Source of the DNA: Escherichia coli
GTDB taxonomy: Bacteria; Pseudomonadota; Gammaproteobacteria; Enterobacterales; Enterobacteriaceae
Reading direction: 5' to 3' (one strand)
DNA length: 64,000 bases
Assembly: GCF_030384885.1 (NCBI RefSeq)
Contig: NZ_CP128613.1
Shown here: positions 46,691-55,692 of the stretch, one piece after another
How positions within the stretch are numbered: the stretch's first letter is position 1
How the letters are laid out: each line of letters opens with the position of its first letter
Notes under the pieces: generated by a model
Databases searched by the model: none
What the model was told of the DNA's origin: nothing
The model's input: the letters and a program-made list of their open reading frames with translations, nothing else
Position numbers and translations under genes: made by a program

Positions 46691-48769
46691 TTAAACCAAT
46701 GCCGATTTATCAATCCCCAGTCGTTTCATCCGTGATAGCAGTGTGGTGCGTTTTAGTCCCAGACGTTGCGCCGCGCCTTTCGGCCCGGCAACCACGCCGT
46801 TAGTCTCTTTTAATACACGCACAATTAGCTGATATTCATCTTCGCCCTCCTGAGCGACGACCGTTGCAGTCGGCGGCGTTTTAGGTTCCGGTAAAGCAAT
46901 ATCAGGCAATGACAGCTGCAGCACGTTGCCACGTGTCAGCAATACCGCGCGCTCAATGACGTTTTCCAGCTCGCGTACGTTACCTGGCCACTCCATATTG
47001 CTCAACGCGCGCAACGTTTCGGCAGGAATGCTGTCGATATTACGCCCCAGACGGCGGGCAATTTTAAAAGTAAAGGCTTTCGCCAGCAGCGGAATATCTT
47101 CCGGACGCTCGCGTAGTGGCGGCAGGTGGATCGGGAATACGTTCAGACGGTAATAGAGATCGCTACGGAACTCGCGGTCGGCAACCATTTTTTTCAGATC
47201 GCGGTTAGTCGCGGCAATTAAACGCACGTCCGTCTGTATAATTTTATTACTGCCGAGACGTTCAAACTCCTGTTCCTGTAATACACGCAGCAACTTCGGT
47301 TGTAACTCCAGCGGCATATCACCCACTTCATCGAGGAACAGGGAGCTTTTATCCGCCAGTTCAAAACGACCGATACGCTGGGCGCTGGCTCCGGTAAACG
47401 CACCACGCTCATGACCAAACAGATCGCTTTCTAACAATCCGGCAGGCATCGCCGCGCAGTTCATTTTTACCATGCGGCGATTATTACGCCCACTGAGATT
47501 ATGGATCGCGCGGGCAATCAGCTCTTTACCGGTGCCAGTTTCACCGAGGATCAGAACTGTACTGTCACTTTGTGCCACCATTTCAACTTGTTTAAGCACG
47601 CTGTACATGGCTTCACTGCGACCAATAATCTCTCCAAATTCACTATCAACATTGTTGAGCTGCTCGGTCAGGGCGAGATTTTCATCAACCAGTCGTTCTT
47701 TCAGACGATGAATTTCCTGATAGGCAAGGGCGTTATCGACAGCGATTGCCACACGTTCGGCAATCTGGCGCAGTAAATTCAGATTGGTCGTGGTAAACAC
47801 TTTCTCTTCGCATTGCGCCAGTTTCAGCACGCCCAGCATGGTGTCGCCAGACATCAGCGGTAACAGGCACAAGGTTTGAATCTGGTTGCCCCAGGTGTCG
47901 AACAACATGCGTTCGTAGGGGGCTAAATTATCTCGCTCGTGGAGATTAATCAGCAGCATCTCTTTGCTTTTAAACACGCGTTCGGTGAGGGTTCCAGCTT
48001 CATCGACTTCGCTCTGTTCGTGAGCGGGATGCTGTTTATCAAGATAGTGAGTGGAGTAGATGTTGAGTTTGTTTTTACGGTGGCTGCGTAAGACGATGCT
48101 TATATCGTCAATGTCGAAATAGTAATGGATTTCTTTGGCGACTTCGCTGACCAGTTCGTCCATATCCAGGCGAGAAAGCACCGCGTTGGTGATGGCAACC
48201 AGGATGCGGAAGTTATCGCGTTCCCGGCATAACAACTCATAGTCGACATTATTGACGACGCGGCTCTGGATTTGTTCGGTGACGACAGAAATGATCTGCG
48301 TAAAAGTTTGCAGGCGATTGAACTCTTTTTCACTCCACGGGCGATCGTCATAACGAATAAATTCACAGCCACCAAAAATATGCCCTTCCGCCGCCAGTGG
48401 CATCAGGCAATAGTGACCAAATTTGGGGTATAGCCCACCAGCGGCCAGCTGCGGCCAGGTTTCACAAAATTCTTCGTAACTGCAATGCAGTGTATCAGGG
48501 CGCGACAAAATGCTGCGCACCGGACCGTGTGCCAGAACAGTTTCGTCTTCATAATTTATGGGGGTGTCTTTTTCACGCGACGCGTAATAAGACGCACGTT
48601 GAGTCTGCGCTTGCCACAACACAATAGCTGCATTGTCGGCGAGCGCAGAACGCTTTACCAATTGCGAAAGAGCCTCACACAGCGAGGCCAGATCGGGCTG
48701 CTGCAATAGTGTCCGAGTGATGTCGAACAACCCTTGTTGTCCGAGATCACTCATCGGTGTATATGACAT
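46691..48769 (-). CDS. fhlA: Formate hydrogenlyase transcriptional activator, sigma54-dependent (692 aa)
   Basis: GETGTGKE Walker A, GAFTGA motif, C-terminal HTH; start at MSYTPMSDL. Confidence 0.95.
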   Translation of the reverse strand: MSYTPMSDLGQQGLFDITRTLLQQPDLASLCEALSQLVKRSALADNAAIVLWQAQTQRASYYASREKDTPINYEDETVLAHGPVRSILSRPDTLHCSYEEFCETWPQLAAGGLYPKFGHYCLMPLAAEGHIFGGCEFIRYDDRPWSEKEFNRLQTFTQIISVVTEQIQSRVVNNVDYELLCRERDNFRILVAITNAVLSRLDMDELVSEVAKEIHYYFDIDDISIVLRSHRKNKLNIYSTHYLDKQHPAHEQSEVDEAGTLTERVFKSKEMLLINLHERDNLAPYERMLFDTWGNQIQTLCLLPLMSGDTMLGVLKLAQCEEKVFTTTNLNLLRQIAERVAIAVDNALAYQEIHRLKERLVDENLALTEQLNNVDSEFGEIIGRSEAMYSVLKQVEMVAQSDSTVLILGETGTGKELIARAIHNLSGRNNRRMVKMNCAAMPAGLLESDLFGHERGAFTGASAQRIGRFELADKSSLFLDEVGDMPLELQPKLLRVLQEQEFERLGSNKIIQTDVRLIAATNRDLKKMVADREFRSDLYYRLNVFPIHLPPLRERPEDIPLLAKAFTFKIARRLGRNIDSIPAETLRALSNMEWPGNVRELENVIERAVLLTRGNVLQLSLPDIALPEPKTPPTATVVAQEGEDEYQLIVRVLKETNGVVAGPKGAAQRLGLKRTTLLSRMKRLGIDKSALV

Positions 48770-51243: not shown

Positions 51244-52106
51244 CGCTGTGTCTCCAGCCAGTTCAGCCACTGGTCCATCCCTTCGCCGCTGGTGGCGGAA
51301 ATAAGGATGATTTCAATTTCTGGATTGACTTCGCGGGCGCAGGCGATGCACTTCTCAACGTCGAAATTGAGATACGGTAGCAGGTCAACTTTGTTGAGCA
51401 GCATCAGTGAGGCGGCGGCAAACATATGTGGATATTTCAGCGGTTTGTCTTCACCTTCGGTAACGGAAAGCACCGCCACTTTGTGTTTTTCACCAAGATC
51501 GAAGCTCGCCGGACATACGAGGTTGCCAACGTTTTCGATAAACAGAATACCGTTATCGTCCAGTGGCAGGCGCGGCGCGGCGTCGGCAATCATCTGTGCG
51601 TCAAGATGGCAACCTTTACCGGTATTCACCTGAATCGCTGGCGTGCCGGTAGCGCGAATGCGCGCGGCATCGTTCACGGTTTGCTGGTCACCTTCAATAA
51701 CTGCGCACGGAACGCTGTCTTTCAGGCGCATCAAGGTTTCCGTCAGCAGGGTGGTTTTACCGGAACCAGGGCTGGAAACCAGGTTGAGTACCAACTGATT
51801 GCGGGCAGCAAAGCGCGCTCGGTTGCGTTCAGCCAGACGGTTGTTTTTGTCTAGCACGTCAATTTCGACTTCCAGCATCCGACGCTGGCTCATGCCCGGC
51901 GCGTGAGTGCCCGCTTCGCCATGACCGTAATGCAGGTCGCCTTCTTCAGTCTGGCTGGGGGTAAATTCAGGCGCTTTAATGCCGGTGATTTTCATCTTCG
52001 GGCGTGCCGCCGGGGCAAATGGCGCGCTACGAAACGCGGAATGAGGGTTATGTTCATCACCCTCGATATACAGGTTGCCTTCACCGCAACCGCATGTTGT
52101 ACACAT
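51234..52106 (-). CDS. hypB: Hydrogenase nickel incorporation GTPase HypB (290 aa)
   Basis: P-loop GSPGSGKTT; N-terminal Cys/His metal-binding region. Confidence 0.93.
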
Positions 52107-52109
52107 CGC

Positions 52110-52460
52110 TCACTCCTGGTCTATTTCTATCCGCCGAATCTGTAAACCGTCGTCTGCCACAATTTGTAGCATGTCGCCATGACACTGTGGACAGCGCCGG
52201 ACGCGCTGGGTTAATAGCGTCACATATTGTTGGCATGTTTCGCACCAGCATTCGGCCTCTTGTTCTTCGAGGTGCAGTTTACAACCTTCCGCTACGCTGC
52301 CGCGGCAAACCAGATCAAAACAAAAGGCAAGAGAGCTGGTTTCGACACAAGAAAATGCGCCAATTTTGAGCCAGACCCCAGTTACGCGTTTTGCACCGTG
52401 TTTTGCGGCCTGCTGTTCGATCAATTCCAGTGCCCGTTGGCAGAGGGTTATTTCGTGCAT
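52110..52460 (-). CDS. hypA: Hydrogenase nickel insertion protein HypA (116 aa)
   Basis: Start MHEITLCQ; zinc-finger CxxC...CxxC. Confidence 0.93.
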   Translation of the reverse strand: MHEITLCQRALELIEQQAAKHGAKRVTGVWLKIGAFSCVETSSLAFCFDLVCRGSVAEGCKLHLEEQEAECWCETCQQYVTLLTQRVRRCPQCHGDMLQIVADDGLQIRRIEIDQE

Positions 52461-52492
52461 ATCGCCTCCCATTAACTATTGCCAGCTATAAG

Positions 52493-52507
52493 CAATAATT
52501 GTGCCAG
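52493..52507 (-). promoter_or_regulatory. Sigma54 (-24/-12) promoter for the hyp operon
   Basis: Minus-strand sequence TGGCACaattaTTGC (GG-N10-GC) about 35 bp upstream of hypA. Confidence 0.7.
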
Positions 52508-52618
52508 TGTTGATTATCCCTAAAGTGAATAATGTCGATGATGTCGAAATGACACGTCGACACGGCGACGAAATTCACCAGAATCATAAAAATCTCTTTT
52601 ATAACAATAAATTAAAAG

Positions 52619-52636
52619 TTGGCACAAAAAATGCTT
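52619..52636 (+). promoter_or_regulatory. Sigma54 (-24/-12) promoter for the hyc operon
   Basis: TTGGCACaaaaaATGCTT (GG-N10-GC) about 40 bp upstream of hycA. Confidence 0.7.
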
Positions 52637-52671
52637 AAAGCTGGCATCTCTGTTAAACGGGTAACCTGACA

Positions 52672-53133
52672 ATGACTATTTGGGAAATAAGCGAGAAAGC
52701 CGATTACATCGCACAGCGGCATCGTCGCCTACAGGACCAGTGGCATCTCTACTGCAATTCGCTGGTTCAGGGGATCACGTTATCGAAAGCGCGCCTGCAT
52801 CACGCCATGAGCTGTGCGCCAGACAAAGAACTCTGTTTCGTCCTTTTTGAACATTTTCGCATTTACGTCACCCTGGCGGATGGCTTTAACAGCCACACCA
52901 TCGAGTATTACGTCGAAACGAAAGAGGGTGAAGAAAAACAGCGGATTGCGCAGGCACAATTGAGCATTGACGGAATGATAGATGGCAAGGTCAACATCCG
53001 CGATCGCGAACAGGTACTGGAACACTATCTCGAAAAAATCGCTGGCGTTTACGACAGCTTATACACCGCCATTGAAAACAATGTACCGGTGAATTTAAGC
53101 CAACTGGTAAAGGGACAAAGCCCGGCGGCATGA
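52672..53133 (+). CDS. hycA: Formate hydrogenlyase regulatory protein HycA (153 aa)
   Basis: Synteny and sequence. Confidence 0.9.
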   Translation: MTIWEISEKADYIAQRHRRLQDQWHLYCNSLVQGITLSKARLHHAMSCAPDKELCFVLFEHFRIYVTLADGFNSHTIEYYVETKEGEEKQRIAQAQLSIDGMIDGKVNIRDREQVLEHYLEKIAGVYDSLYTAIENNVPVNLSQLVKGQSPAA

Positions 53134-53257
53134 GCTGAGGCTTTGCCCGTTTTGCAGGCGTTACGCCTGTTTGGGGATGGGCGTGTCGATGAGTGTCGAA
53201 AATAACATTTCATCGGCATGTTTTCGTCAAAAATGACAATCACCTGAGGAATGCCTG

Positions 53258-53869
53258 GTGAATCGTTTTGTAATTGCTGACTCCACGCTCTGTATCGGCT
53301 GCCACACCTGTGAGGCCGCCTGTTCAGAGACGCATCGCCAGCACGGCCTGCAATCAATGCCGCGCCTGCGAGTGATGCTAAATGAAAAAGAATCTGCGCC
53401 GCAGCTCTGTCACCACTGTGAAGATGCACCCTGTGCGGTGGTCTGCCCGGTTAACGCTATCACCCGCGTTGATGGGGCAGTGCAGCTGAATGAAAGCCTG
53501 TGCGTAAGCTGCAAACTGTGCGGCATCGCCTGCCCGTTTGGCGCAATCGAATTTTCCGGCAGCCGTCCGCTGGATATTCCGGCAAACGCCAATACCCCGA
53601 AAGCACCACCGGCACCGCCTGCTCCGGCGCGTGTCAGCACGTTGCTTGACTGGGTGCCGGGTATTCGCGCGATCGCCGTCAAATGTGACCTCTGTAGCTT
53701 TGATGAACAAGGTCCAGCCTGCGTGCGGATGTGCCCAACCAAAGCCCTGCATCTGGTGGATAACACCGATATCGCCCGCGTCAGCAAGCGTAAGCGTGAG
53801 CTGACCTTTAACACGGACTTTGGCGATCTCACCTTGTTTCAGCAGGCTCAAAGTGGAGAGGCTAAATGA
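53258..53869 (+). CDS. hycB: Formate hydrogenlyase 4Fe-4S ferredoxin subunit (203 aa)
   Basis: Several CxxCxxCxxxCP motifs. Confidence 0.93.
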   Translation: MNRFVIADSTLCIGCHTCEAACSETHRQHGLQSMPRLRVMLNEKESAPQLCHHCEDAPCAVVCPVNAITRVDGAVQLNESLCVSCKLCGIACPFGAIEFSGSRPLDIPANANTPKAPPAPPAPARVSTLLDWVPGIRAIAVKCDLCSFDEQGPACVRMCPTKALHLVDNTDIARVSKRKRELTFNTDFGDLTLFQQAQSGEAK

Positions 53870-55692
53870 GCGCAATTTCCCTGATCAATAGCGGCGTGGC
53901 GTGGTTTGTTGCCGCCGCTGTTCTGGCATTTCTCTTTTCTTTTCAAAAGGCGTTAAGCGGCTGGATTGCCGGAATTGGCGGCGCGGTGGGTAGCCTGTAT
54001 ACGGCAGCCGCAGGCTTCACTGTGCTGACTGGCGCGGTTGGCGTGAGCGGCGCGTTGTCGCTGGTAAGCTACAATGTGCAAATCTCTCCGCTTAATGCGA
54101 TTTGGCTGATTACCCTCGGCCTGTGCGGTCTGTTTGTCAGCCTTTACAACATTGACTGGCATCGCCATGCGCAGGTGAAATGCAACGGTTTGCAAATCAA
54201 TATGTTGATGGCTGCTGCCGTCTGTGCCGTCATTGCCAGCAATCTGGGCATGTTCGTAGTAATGGCAGAAATCATGGCCCTGTGTGCGGTGTTCCTCACC
54301 AGCAACAGCAAAGAGGGCAAACTGTGGTTTGCGCTGGGGCGTCTTGGCACTTTGCTGCTGGCGATTGCTTGCTGGCTGCTGTGGCAACGTTACGGCACGC
54401 TGGATCTGCGCCTGCTGGATATGCGCATGCAACAGCTGCCGCTTGGTTCCGATATCTGGCTGCTCGGTGTGATTGGTTTTGGCCTGCTGGCCGGGATTAT
54501 CCCGCTGCACGGCTGGGTGCCACAGGCTCATGCTAACGCCTCTGCGCCAGCTGCCGCGCTGTTTTCCACGGTGGTGATGAAAATTGGCCTGCTGGGTATT
54601 TTAACCCTGTCTCTGCTGGGCGGTAATGCGCCGCTGTGGTGGGGAATTGCACTTCTGGTACTCGGCATGATCACCGCGTTCGTCGGCGGTCTGTATGCGC
54701 TGATGGAGCACAACATTCAGCGTTTGCTGGCTTACCACACTCTGGAAAATATCGGCATCATCCTGCTGGGGCTGGGCGCTGGCGTAACGGGTATCGCGCT
54801 TGAACAACCGGCGCTGATTGCCCTTGGCCTGGTCGGTGGTCTGTACCATCTGCTTAACCATAGCCTGTTCAAGAGCGTACTGTTCCTCGGGGCTGGGAGC
54901 GTCTGGTTCCGTACCGGTCATCGCGATATCGAAAAACTCGGCGGTATTGGCAAAAAAATGCCGGTTATCTCCATCGCCATGTTGGTCGGTCTGATGGCAA
55001 TGGCTGCGCTGCCACCGCTGAACGGTTTTGCCGGGGAATGGGTTATCTATCAATCCTTCTTCAAACTGAGCAATAGTGGCGCGTTTGTTGCTCGTCTTCT
55101 CGGGCCGCTGCTCGCCGTGGGGCTGGCAATTACCGGTGCGCTGGCAGTGATGTGTATGGCGAAAGTTTATGGCGTTACTTTCCTTGGCGCGCCGCGTACC
55201 AAAGAAGCCGAAAACGCCACCTGTGCGCCGCTCCTGATGAGCGTAAGCGTAGTGGCACTGGCGATTTGCTGCGTGATTGGCGGTGTTGCTGCGCCGTGGC
55301 TGCTGCCGATGTTGTCTGCTGCCGTACCTCTGCCGCTGGAGCCTGCTAATACAACCGTTTCTCAACCAATGATCACGTTGCTGCTGATTGCCTGCCCGCT
55401 TCTGCCATTCATCATTATGGCGATTTGCAAAGGCGACCGTCTGCCGTCGCGTTCCCGCGGCGCTGCCTGGGTATGTGGCTACGACCATGAAAAATCAATG
55501 GTGATTACCGCTCACGGTTTTGCCATGCCGGTGAAACAGGCATTTGCGCCAGTGCTGAAACTGCGCAAATGGCTGAATCCGGTGTCGCTGGTACCAGGCT
55601 GGCAGTGCGAGGGGAGTGCGTTGCTGTTCCGCCGGATGGCGCTGGTTGAACTGGCGGTACTGGTGGTGATTATTGTTTCACGAGGAGCCTGA
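53866..55692 (+). CDS. hycC: Formate hydrogenlyase membrane subunit 3, NuoL/M-like (608 aa)
   Basis: Large polytopic membrane protein. Confidence 0.93.
   Translation: MSAISLINSGVAWFVAAAVLAFLFSFQKALSGWIAGIGGAVGSLYTAAAGFTVLTGAVGVSGALSLVSYNVQISPLNAIWLITLGLCGLFVSLYNIDWHRHAQVKCNGLQINMLMAAAVCAVIASNLGMFVVMAEIMALCAVFLTSNSKEGKLWFALGRLGTLLLAIACWLLWQRYGTLDLRLLDMRMQQLPLGSDIWLLGVIGFGLLAGIIPLHGWVPQAHANASAPAAALFSTVVMKIGLLGILTLSLLGGNAPLWWGIALLVLGMITAFVGGLYALMEHNIQRLLAYHTLENIGIILLGLGAGVTGIALEQPALIALGLVGGLYHLLNHSLFKSVLFLGAGSVWFRTGHRDIEKLGGIGKKMPVISIAMLVGLMAMAALPPLNGFAGEWVIYQSFFKLSNSGAFVARLLGPLLAVGLAITGALAVMCMAKVYGVTFLGAPRTKEAENATCAPLLMSVSVVALAICCVIGGVAAPWLLPMLSAAVPLPLEPANTTVSQPMITLLLIACPLLPFIIMAICKGDRLPSRSRGAAWVCGYDHEKSMVITAHGFAMPVKQAFAPVLKLRKWLNPVSLVPGWQCEGSALLFRRMALVELAVLVVIIVSRGA

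What the first reader, a model, noticed from the sequence alone, without database searches (positions are those of the whole stretch)
52461..52671. Divergent sigma54 promoters and GTCGA-repeat elements between hypA and hycA
Clear -24/-12 elements are present on both strands: TGGCACaattaTTGC reading toward hypA and TTGGCACaaaaaATGCTT reading toward hycA. Between them lies the repeat-rich segment atgtcgatgatgtcgaaatgacacgtcgacacggcgacgaaatt with multiple (T)GTCGA units, a candidate FhlA upstream activating sequence. This is known biology, recorded because it is directly visible in the sequence.
Basis: partly seen in the sequence, partly recalled or inferred. Interest (0 to 1): 0.2.

Follow-up and report, generated by a model that had tools for sequence, protein, structure and literature searches.

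The report
Formate hydrogenlyase hyc–hyp control region
This is the well-known switch region of E. coli's hydrogen-producing formate hydrogenlyase genes: two back-to-back sigma-54 promoters around a binding array for the formate-sensing activator FhlA.

Summary
The 211-bp hypA–hycA gap (52461-52671) holds two divergent sigma-54 promoters: minus 52506-52492 TGGCACaattaTTGC and plus 52620-52634 TGGCACaaaaaATGC. They are the two best sigma-54 matrix hits in the whole 64 kb. They are identical to the E. coli K-12 sites that bind sigma-54 in ChIP-seq, and both are present in 81 of 81 Enterobacteriaceae species compared.

The GTCGA-rich segment (core 52533-52562) is the best hit in the window to a published FhlA matrix. 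It is conserved across 14 named genera and lies about 100 bp upstream of the predicted hyc start. A conserved IHF-type site (52602-52614) sits between it and the hyc promoter.

Spacings between the two promoters and the intergenic array change between lineages only in steps of 9-11 bp, one helical turn. This suggests a face-of-helix constraint on both sides.

The activator gene fhlA is in the window (46691-48769).

Verdict: the finding is real, correctly interpreted and already known. Interest is low. Which enhancer serves which promoter could not be settled here.

The parts
52491..52507 (-). Sigma-54 promoter of the hypABCDE-fhlA operon: CTGGCACAATTATTGCT, with -24 GG at 52505-52504 and -12 GC at 52493-52492.
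   Evidence: Exact consensus match. Best RpoN-matrix hit in the window at 18.9 bits. Identical to K-12 ChIP-seq site OS28. 12 of 17 columns are at least 95% conserved across 81 species, and the motif is present in 81 of 81.
52480..52480 (-). Predicted hyp transcription start, 20 nt upstream of the hypA ATG at 52460.
   Evidence: Inferred with the rule of PMC4591121 (19 bp downstream of the motif centre). This reproduces their listed distance of 20. Not measured here.
52525..52578 (.). UAS1, the FhlA-type enhancer array. The conserved core 52533-52562 reads TGTCGATGATGTCGAAATGACACGTCGACA. It contains two overlapping inverted repeats: TGTCGAAATGACA (52542-52554) and TGACACGTCGACA (50-62). The flanking 13-nt inverted arms are 52525-52537 and 52566-52578.
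   Evidence: Top FhlA-matrix hit in the window at 52533, 15.3 of 16.8 bits. Second-best hit (E 0.005, next 1.9) of a profile built from the hycA-hycB element of non-Escherichia species. The right arm 52563-52578 is conserved only in Escherichia/Salmonella-like sequences.
52602..52614 (+). IHF-type site TAACAATAAATTA, matching 12 of 13 positions of WATCAANNNNTTR. It lies between UAS1 and the hyc promoter.
   Evidence: It is the only hit with up to 1 mismatch in the intergenic region. A site with up to 1 mismatch is present in 56 of 81 species (24 exact). It starts 18 nt before TGGCA in 66 of 81. The same AT-rich block precedes the K-12 hydN promoter. Binding was not tested.
52619..52635 (+). 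Sigma-54 promoter of the hycABCDEFGHI operon: TTGGCACAAAAAATGCT, with -24 GG at 52621-52622 and -12 GC at 52633-52634.
   Evidence: one mismatch. Second-best RpoN-matrix hit at 15.2 bits. Identical to K-12 ChIP-seq site OS27. 10 of 17 columns are at least 95% conserved, and the motif is present in 81 of 81 species.
52646..52646 (+). Predicted hyc transcription start, 26 nt upstream of the hycA ATG at 52672.
   Evidence: Same rule as for hyp. It reproduces the listed distance of 26. Not measured here.
52647..52671 (+). Conserved hycA leader: TCTCTGTTAAACGGGTAACCTGACA.
   Evidence: 9 of 25 columns are at least 95% conserved across 81 species. There is no stable RNA fold, z 0.47. Its role is unexplained.
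53183..53238 (.). UAS2, a second FhlA-type array in the hycA-hycB spacer. Module A is GTGTCGATGAGTGTCGAAAATAACA. Module B is TTTCGTCAAAAATGACA.
   Evidence: FhlA-matrix hits at 53194 and 53225. TCGTCAAAAATGAC, within module B, is found exactly in 78 of 81 sequences (alignment). It has the same module and orientation as UAS1. It lies about 730 bp upstream of the predicted hyp start and about 565 bp downstream of the predicted hyc start.
52110..52460 (-). hypA coding sequence, the first gene of the hyp operon.
   Evidence: NCBIfam HypA, 241.8 bits.
52672..53133 (+). hycA coding sequence. HycA is the anti-activator of FhlA and the first gene of the hyc operon.
   Evidence: NCBIfam HycA equivalog, 298.9 bits. 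Pfam PF11046 in homologues.
46691..48769 (-). fhlA, the cognate sigma-54 enhancer-binding protein, at the distal end of the hyp operon.
   Evidence: NCBIfam NF011958 equivalog, 1542.8 bits against a cut-off of 830, full length 692 aa.

Best explanation
This is the bidirectional control region of the E. coli formate regulon.

Mechanism.
- RNA polymerase carrying sigma-54 binds as a closed complex at two back-to-back promoters. One reads leftward into hypABCDE-fhlA and one reads rightward into hycABCDEFGHI.
- Neither promoter can open without an ATP-driven enhancer-binding protein.
- That protein is FhlA, encoded in the same window. It binds arrays of TGWCR half-sites spaced about one helical turn apart, so the sites lie on one face of the DNA.
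- When activated by formate, FhlA contacts the closed complexes by DNA looping.

Proposed allocation of the enhancers.
- The intergenic array (UAS1) is centred about 95-102 bp upstream of the predicted hyc start.
- A conserved IHF-type site between UAS1 and the hyc promoter would bend the DNA towards that promoter. UAS1 is therefore the hyc enhancer.
- A second array (UAS2) in the hycA-hycB spacer lies about 730 bp upstream of the hyp start. It is most likely the main hyp enhancer.

Circuit logic. fhlA lies in the hyp operon and hycA, the FhlA antagonist, is the first hyc gene. The region therefore carries both positive and negative feedback.

Shown here: the motifs, their rank against chance, their identity to K-12 sites that bind sigma-54 in vivo, their conservation and spacing, and the presence of fhlA.

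Inferred or recalled: FhlA and IHF occupancy, the start sites, and which enhancer serves which promoter.
For: Position and identity.
- The sequences and coordinates are as stated.
- The two promoters are the top two RpoN-matrix hits in 64 kb.
- They are identical to K-12 sigma-54 ChIP-seq sites with fold-above-threshold scores of 91 (hycA) and 201 (hypA). Both are flagged as confirmed promoters (PMC4591121).
- The homologous Salmonella sites bind sigma-54, and the operons are induced 26-fold and 5.6-fold (PMC3844500).

Conservation.
- Both motifs are present in 81 of 81 species of 14 named genera.
- The intergenic length is held to 198-223 bp.
- All 11 K-12/window differences in the gap fall outside the elements.

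The enhancer arrays.
- UAS1 is the best FhlA-matrix hit in the window, and UAS2 holds two more hits.
- A profile from non-Escherichia UAS2 recovers UAS1 with E 0.005; the next hit has E 1.9.
- A related GTCAAAACTGAC lies at about -109 from the predicted fdhF start in K-12.
- FhlA is reported to bind one side of the DNA (PMC11291172, citing Leonhartsberger 2000).

Accessory parts.
- The IHF-type site keeps a fixed offset in 66 of 81 species.
- The fhlA, hypA and hycA genes are confirmed.

Spacing.
- Spacings change only in steps of 9-11 bp.
Against: - No binding, start-site or expression data were produced here.
- The published FhlA matrix probably includes this very site, so the top score is partly circular.
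- The published 16-bp FhlA consensus CATTTCGTACGAAATG (PMC4987338) matches UAS1 at only 9 of 16 positions, a level reached 334 times in the window. UAS2 reaches 11 of 16.
- The E. coli IHF site has one mismatch to the consensus.
- UAS1 is only about 64-72 bp from the hyp start, and its spacing to the hyp promoter is as tightly quantised as its spacing to the hyc promoter. That is unexpected if UAS1 served hyc alone.
- The assignment of UAS2 to hyp rests on my recollection of Schlensog et al. 1994, Hopper et al. 1994 and Lutz et al. 1990. These could not be read.
Confidence: 0.9

Rival explanations
1. Shared-enhancer model. UAS1 is a single bidirectional enhancer that activates both the hyp and the hyc promoter from between them. 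UAS2 is an auxiliary site that raises local FhlA concentration or stabilises the oligomer. It is not the dedicated hyp enhancer.
For: - The distance from the hyp -24 element to the UAS1 core takes only the values 45-47 or 55-58 bp. The distance from the core to the hyc -24 element takes only 59-62 or 70-71 bp. No intermediates occur in 79 species, and both classes occur within Citrobacter. This points to a face-of-helix constraint on both sides.
- UAS2 shows no helical phasing to either promoter, with resultant length 0.06-0.14.
- From memory, the divergent zraP/zraSR sigma-54 promoters of E. coli share one intergenic ZraR site.
Against: - UAS1 is centred only about 64-72 bp from the hyp start, with no bending site on that side.
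- UAS2 is more strongly conserved than UAS1. That argues for an essential role rather than an auxiliary one.
- Lack of phasing is expected for any enhancer more than 500 bp away.
- The quantised spacing rests on perhaps 3-4 independent indel events.
- My recollection of the primary literature favours separate enhancers.
Confidence: 0.3
2. The GTCGA/TGWCR repeats are not an FhlA site. They would bind another regulator of the region (for example ModE or a nitrate-responsive regulator) or be a chance cluster.
For: - The match to the idealised 16-bp FhlA consensus is poor, 9 of 16.
- The published matrix may be circular with respect to this site.
- ModE is reported as a secondary activator of hyc (PMC3149613).
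Against: - The core is conserved across 14 genera while the spacers are not.
- The same module recurs in the hycA-hycB spacer and is recovered by an independent profile.
- Related inverted repeats sit at the enhancer position of fdhF.
- Three GTCGA in 60 nt is unique in the 64 kb.
- A sigma-54 promoter requires an enhancer-binding protein, and FhlA is the activator named for hyc and hyp in the papers read here.
Confidence: 0.04
3. The -24/-12 matches are coincidental, and the operons are driven from this gap by sigma-70 promoters.
For: - Loose consensus hits occur at the chance rate in the window.
- Two weak sigma-70-like matches lie in the gap, at 52472-52499 and 52557-52584.
Against: - The sigma-70-like matches are no more frequent than in shuffles (2 against 1.6) and both are on the plus strand.
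- The sigma-54 motifs are the two best matrix hits in the window and are invariant in 81 species.
- They are bound by sigma-54 in vivo in K-12 and Salmonella.
Confidence: 0.02

Closest known systems
E. coli K-12 hycA–hypA intergenic control region (formate regulon; divergent sigma-54 promoters PhycA and PhypA with an FhlA UAS)
   Same: It is the same locus. The promoter 17-mers, the UAS1 core, the IHF-type site and the hycA leader are all identical to MG1655. The flanking genes are the same.
   Different: There are 11 substitutions in the 211-bp gap, all in spacers. The window is 100% identical to strain 2013C-4282 and about 97% identical to most E. coli.
FhlA enhancers of fdhF and hydN-hypF in E. 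coli K-12
   Same: They share the TGWCR/GTC-N5-6-GAC units upstream of a sigma-54 promoter. fdhF has GTCAAAACTGAC about 109 bp upstream of its predicted start. hydN has TGTCGATGACATCG, and the same AATAACANTAAATTAAAA block before its -24 element.
   Different: Each serves a single promoter in one direction. Profile matches to them are weak, E 1.6-1.8.
zraP–zraSR divergent sigma-54 promoters with an intergenic ZraR enhancer (E. coli)
   Same: Two back-to-back sigma-54 promoters lie in one short intergenic region, and both appear in the same ChIP-seq table. The enhancer lies between them (the last point is from memory).
   Different: The activator and its signal differ (ZraR, zinc). No second distal enhancer is known to me. 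Not examined here.
IHF-assisted sigma-54 promoters such as Klebsiella nifH (NifA) and E. coli pspA (PspF)
   Same: They share the architecture of enhancer, IHF bend and -24/-12 promoter within about 130 bp (established knowledge).
   Different: The activators and site sequences differ. Here a second promoter sits on the other side of the enhancer.

Membership tests
Sigma-54 (RpoN) dependent promoter | GG and GC dinucleotides exactly ten bases apart within TGGCAC-N5-TTGCW | tested here: met
   hyp side: exact match. hyc side: one mismatch (ATGC for TTGC). The two sites rank first and second in 64 kb with a 186-promoter matrix.
Sigma-54 (RpoN) dependent promoter | Oriented towards a gene and a short distance upstream of it | tested here: met
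   The predicted starts lie 20 nt (hypA) and 26 nt (hycA) upstream of the start codons.
Sigma-54 (RpoN) dependent promoter | Sigma-54 occupancy in vivo | not testable with these tools
   The literature on identical sequence gives K-12 ChIP-seq sites OS27 and OS28 (PMC4591121). The Salmonella homologues are also bound (PMC3844500).
Sigma-54 (RpoN) dependent promoter | Transcript 5' end about 12 nt downstream of the GC, and dependence on rpoN | not testable with these tools
   Both promoters are flagged as experimentally confirmed in EcoCyc according to PMC4591121 Table 1. The primary mapping paper (Lutz et al. 1990) is not held.
Sigma-54 (RpoN) dependent promoter | A cognate enhancer-binding protein is encoded in the genome | tested here: met
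   fhlA lies at 46691-48769: NCBIfam equivalog, 1542.8 bits against a cut-off of 830.
FhlA upstream activating sequence | Match to the published FhlA position matrix (TGWC-N6-GWCA type) | tested here: met
   The best hit in the window is at 52533, with 15.3 of 16.8 bits. Caveat: the matrix was built from 13 characterised sites that probably include this one.
FhlA upstream activating sequence | Match to the 16-bp consensus CATTTCGTACGAAATG (Leonhartsberger et al. 2000, via PMC4987338) | tested here: inconclusive
   UAS1 reaches at best 9 of 16, a level found 334 times in the window. UAS2 reaches 11 of 16, one of 16 positions in the window that reach 11 or more. Only half-sites are clear: CGAAATG at 52545 and CGAAATT at 52569.
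FhlA upstream activating sequence | Located roughly 100 bp upstream of a sigma-54 promoter of the formate regulon | tested here: met
   UAS1 is centred about 95-102 bp upstream of the predicted hyc start. UAS2 lies about 730 bp upstream of the hyp start.
FhlA upstream activating sequence | Conserved in species that carry fhlA and the hyc operon | tested here: met
   The UAS1 core has 13 of 38 columns at least 95% conserved across 81 species. TCGTCAAAAATGAC, within UAS2 module B, is found exactly in 78 of 81 sequences.
FhlA upstream activating sequence | Protected by purified FhlA and required for formate induction | not testable with these tools
   I recall this from Schlensog et al. 1994 and Leonhartsberger et al. 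2000. Neither paper is held.
IHF binding site | Match to WATCAANNNNTTR with an AT-rich 5' flank | tested here: met
   TAACAATAAATTA at 52602-52614 matches 12 of 13 positions. 56 of 81 species have a match with up to 1 mismatch, and 66 of 81 have it at the same offset.
IHF binding site | IHF binding and IHF dependence of expression | not testable with these tools
   [quoted passage not shown] The primary paper (Hopper et al. 1994) is not held.

The most novel reading that the evidence does not exclude
The intergenic FhlA array may be a phase-locked enhancer shared by both promoters. Across 79 species its distance to each -24 element changes only by whole helical turns (45-47 or 55-58 bp on the hyp side; 59-62 or 70-71 bp on the hyc side). 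One oligomer on one DNA face might therefore fire both divergent sigma-54 promoters. The near-invariant hycA-hycB array would then act as a distal partner rather than as the sole hyp enhancer.
Probability: 0.3. Interest if true: 0.3.

Novelty: already known. Interest (0 to 1): 0.12.

Why it matters
This region sets the level of hydrogenase 3 and of the Hyp maturation proteins, and so of fermentative hydrogen production. It is a frequent target of strain engineering.

Confirming it mainly shows that reading the raw sequence alone gave the right answer. It also supplies exact coordinates for this strain.

The comparative data add modest value:
- a map of which bases are constrained across 14 genera;
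- the second enhancer outside the flagged interval;
- spacing rules in helical-turn steps, which would guide promoter engineering and could settle how two divergent sigma-54 promoters share activator sites.

Tried and rejected
- **Literature.** Eleven look-ups by DOI or PMC id failed. These covered Skibinski 2002, Maupin 1990, Hopper 1995, Barrios 1999 and the hydrogen-engineering papers and reviews from Wood's laboratory. No held paper describes the FhlA footprints, the mapped start sites or a hycA-hycB binding site.
- **16-bp FhlA consensus.** Scanning with it does not discriminate UAS1 from background.
- **Loose sigma-54 pattern.** The count with up to 1 mismatch is at chance level and was replaced by a matrix scan.
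- **Sigma-70 scan.** It gave two weak plus-strand matches, no more than in shuffles. I rejected these as promoters.
- **Terminator-like hit.** The hit at 52570-52555 is the GTCGAC-containing palindrome inside UAS1. It lies upstream of both start sites, so I rejected it as a terminator.
- **Rfam.** A permissive scan of 51500-54000 found nothing.
- **hycA leader fold.** The RNA fold is no better than shuffles.
- **UAS2 phasing.** I looked for helical phasing of UAS2 relative to the promoters and found none.
- **Strict TGWC-N5/6-GWCA pattern.** It finds nothing upstream of K-12 fdhF, hydN or hyfA, so the motif definition remains loose.

Full report
**What is there**

The window is E. coli. A 551-nt query around the finding matches 5,425 of 5,426 complete E. 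coli genomes. It is 100% identical to strain 2013C-4282 and about 97% identical to most.

hypA runs on the minus strand with its ATG at 52460. hycA runs on the plus strand from 52672. Both are confirmed by NCBIfam equivalog or subfamily models. The flagged interval 52461-52671 is therefore exactly the hypA–hycA intergenic region.

- TGGCACaattaTTGC at 52506-52492, minus strand;
- TTGGCACaaaaaATGCTT at 52619-52636, plus strand;
- the GTCGA-rich 44-mer at 52532-52575.

**Is it more than chance?**

The loose pattern TGGCAC-N5-TTGC with up to one mismatch is not enriched in the window: 8 hits against 7.6 expected. With a matrix from 186 sigma-54 promoters (PMC7658346 Table 2), the two sites are the best and second-best of all positions on both strands. 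They score 18.9 and 15.2 of a possible 21.1 bits. Each points at the adjacent gene.

Three GTCGA within 60 nt occur nowhere else in the 64 kb; the mean is 0.064 per 60 nt.

The two promoters also form a 27-nt inverted repeat, 52480-52506 with 52620-52646, 85% complementary.

**External evidence on identical sequence**

The window is identical to K-12 MG1655 over both promoter 17-mers, the repeat core, the AT-rich block and the hycA leader. The 11 substitutions between the two strains in the gap all fall in spacers.

The K-12 sigma-54 ChIP-seq study lists exactly these 17-mers as sites OS27 (hycA, fold-above-threshold 91) and OS28 (hypA, 201). Both are flagged as experimentally confirmed promoters. 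The predicted starts lie 26 and 20 bp from the start codons (PMC4591121). In window coordinates these starts are 52646 and 52480.

In Salmonella the homologous sites bind sigma-54, and the operons are induced 26-fold and 5.6-fold by a constitutive activator (PMC3844500).

The cognate activator gene fhlA lies in the window at 46691-48769.

**The repeat element**

A published FhlA matrix of 13 sites (PMC7658346) gives its best hit in the window at 52533: TGTCGATGATGTCG, 15.3 of 16.8 bits. Two further hits lie at 53194 and 53225, in the hycA–hycB spacer. The matrix probably contains these sites, so I ran an independent test.

I built a profile from the hycA–hycB element of 73 non-Escherichia species and searched the window with it. 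It finds that element first and the intergenic repeat (52533-52554, same strand) second, with E 0.005. The next hit has E 1.9. The two elements therefore share one module, TGTCGA-N3/4-TGWCGAAA(A)TGACA.

Within UAS1 there are two overlapping inverted repeats, TGTCGAAATGACA and TGACACGTCGACA. The half-sites recur every 8-10 bp. This fits the report that FhlA binds one side of the DNA (PMC11291172, citing Leonhartsberger et al. 2000).

The idealised 16-bp consensus CATTTCGTACGAAATG (PMC4987338) is a poor discriminator: 9 of 16 for UAS1 and 11 of 16 for UAS2.

A related GTCAAAACTGAC lies about 109 bp upstream of the predicted fdhF start in K-12. The hydN upstream region has TGTCGATGACATCG.

**Comparative footprint**

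I anchored on HycA and retrieved one locus from each of 80 species in 14 named genera. hypA and hycA are divergent neighbours in every one, 198-223 bp apart.

Alignment gave the following conservation:

| Element | Window coordinates | Columns at least 95% conserved |
|---|---|---|
| hyp promoter | 52491-52507 | 12 of 17 |
| UAS1 core | 52525-52562 | 13 of 38 |
| IHF-type site | 52602-52614 | 2 of 13 (see text) |
| hyc promoter | 52619-52635 | 10 of 17 |
| hycA leader | 52647-52671 | 9 of 25 |

- The IHF-type site matches WATCAANNNNTTR with up to 1 mismatch in 56 of 81 species. It starts 18 nt before TGGCA in 66 of 81.
- The spacers between elements are not conserved.
- Both sigma-54 motifs are present in 81 of 81 species.
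- The right-hand part of the E. coli repeat (52563-52578) is lineage-specific.
- In the hycA–hycB spacer, module A and the 16-mer TTTCGTCAAAAATGAC are conserved in essentially all species.

**Spacing**

| Distance | Values observed |
|---|---|
| hyp -24 GG to UAS1 core | 45-47 or 55-58 bp |
| UAS1 core to hyc -24 GG | 59-62 or 70-71 bp |
| hyp -24 GG to hyc -24 GG | 105-106 or 115-119 bp |

No intermediate values occur in 79 species. Both classes occur inside Citrobacter, and Kosakonia reached the short class separately. At least three or four indel events therefore preserved helical phase.

UAS2 lies 657-742 bp from the hyp promoter and shows no phasing, as expected at that distance.

**How it most likely works**

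Sigma-54 holoenzyme sits as a closed complex on both promoters. Formate-activated FhlA bound to the arrays uses ATP hydrolysis to open them by DNA looping.

UAS1 is centred about 95-102 bp upstream of the hyc start, with the IHF-type site between them. It fits the classic arrangement of enhancer, IHF bend and promoter for hyc.

From memory of Schlensog et al. 1994 and Hopper et al. 1994, FhlA also binds between hycA and hycB, and that site serves hyp. I could not verify this, because the papers are not held and all searches failed. The phase-locked spacing of UAS1 to the hyp promoter keeps open a shared-enhancer model, which I rate at about 0.3.

fhlA is the last gene of the hyp operon and hycA is the first gene of hyc, so the region carries both positive and negative feedback (established knowledge; the HycA and FhlA roles are stated in the text found).

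**Alternatives rejected**

- Sigma-70 promoter matches in the gap are at chance level.
- The terminator-like hit is the UAS palindrome, upstream of both start sites.
- No Rfam family matches.
- The conserved hycA leader has no stable fold.

**Verdict**

This is textbook biology of the formate regulon, so novelty is 'already known' and interest is low.

The work here adds exact coordinates, the second enhancer outside the flagged interval, the IHF-type site, and the helical-turn spacing rule across Enterobacteriaceae.

Noticed in passing
window 53183-53238: A second FhlA-type array lies in the hycA-hycB spacer, outside the flagged interval. It includes the string TCGTCAAAAATGAC, found exactly in 78 of 81 sequences. 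It is better conserved than the intergenic array.
   Followed up: yes
window 52480-52506 and 52620-52646: The two promoters form a 27-nt inverted repeat (85% complementary). The similarity runs past the -12 element to the predicted +1 (TTAWAGCTGGCA). This extension is seen only in E. coli-like sequences, not in E. albertii or other genera.
   Followed up: partly
window 52504-52622, with L008-L087: Distances between the hyp promoter, the UAS1 core and the hyc promoter fall into classes 9-11 bp apart, with no intermediates across 79 species. Both classes occur within Citrobacter.
   Followed up: yes
window 55077-55092 (+), inside hycC: The third-best sigma-54 matrix hit in the window is TGGCGCGTTTGTTGCT at 15.1 bits. 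It corresponds to the weak intragenic sigma-54 ChIP-seq site IS31 of K-12 (PMC4591121).
   Followed up: partly
window 52647-52671 (+): The 25-nt hycA leader TCTCTGTTAAACGGGTAACCTGACA is about as conserved as the promoters across 81 species. It has no stable RNA fold (z 0.47) and its role is unexplained.
   Followed up: partly
L088 (E. coli FDAARGOS_1288), 1297-2500: One of 5,426 complete E. coli genomes carries an IS5 element between hypA and the hyp sigma-54 promoter. This separates the hyp operon from its formate-responsive promoter.
   Followed up: partly
window 48236-48300 (inside fhlA): The densest TGWCG/CGWCA cluster in the window (4 in 60 nt) lies here, with an FhlA-matrix hit at 48244 (minus), CGTCAATAATGTCG, 11.1 bits. 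It lies within the fhlA coding sequence.
   Followed up: no
window 52850-52926 (inside hycA): Strings resembling FhlA half-sites (CATTTTCGCATTTACGTCAC and TTACGTCGAAACGAAAG) resemble the fdhF enhancer string TTTCGTTTCGTCACG. The matrix score is only 9.6 bits.
   Followed up: no
window 52741-52756 (+), inside hycA: A weak sigma-54-like motif, TGGCATCTCTACTGCA at 11.9 bits, lies in the sense orientation.
   Followed up: no
L006 (K-12 hydN upstream), 862-885: The AT-rich block before the hydN -24 element (AATAACAGTAAATTAAAAA) is nearly identical to the one before the hyc -24 element (TATAACAATAAATTAAAAG). This suggests a shared IHF-plus-promoter module.
   Followed up: partly
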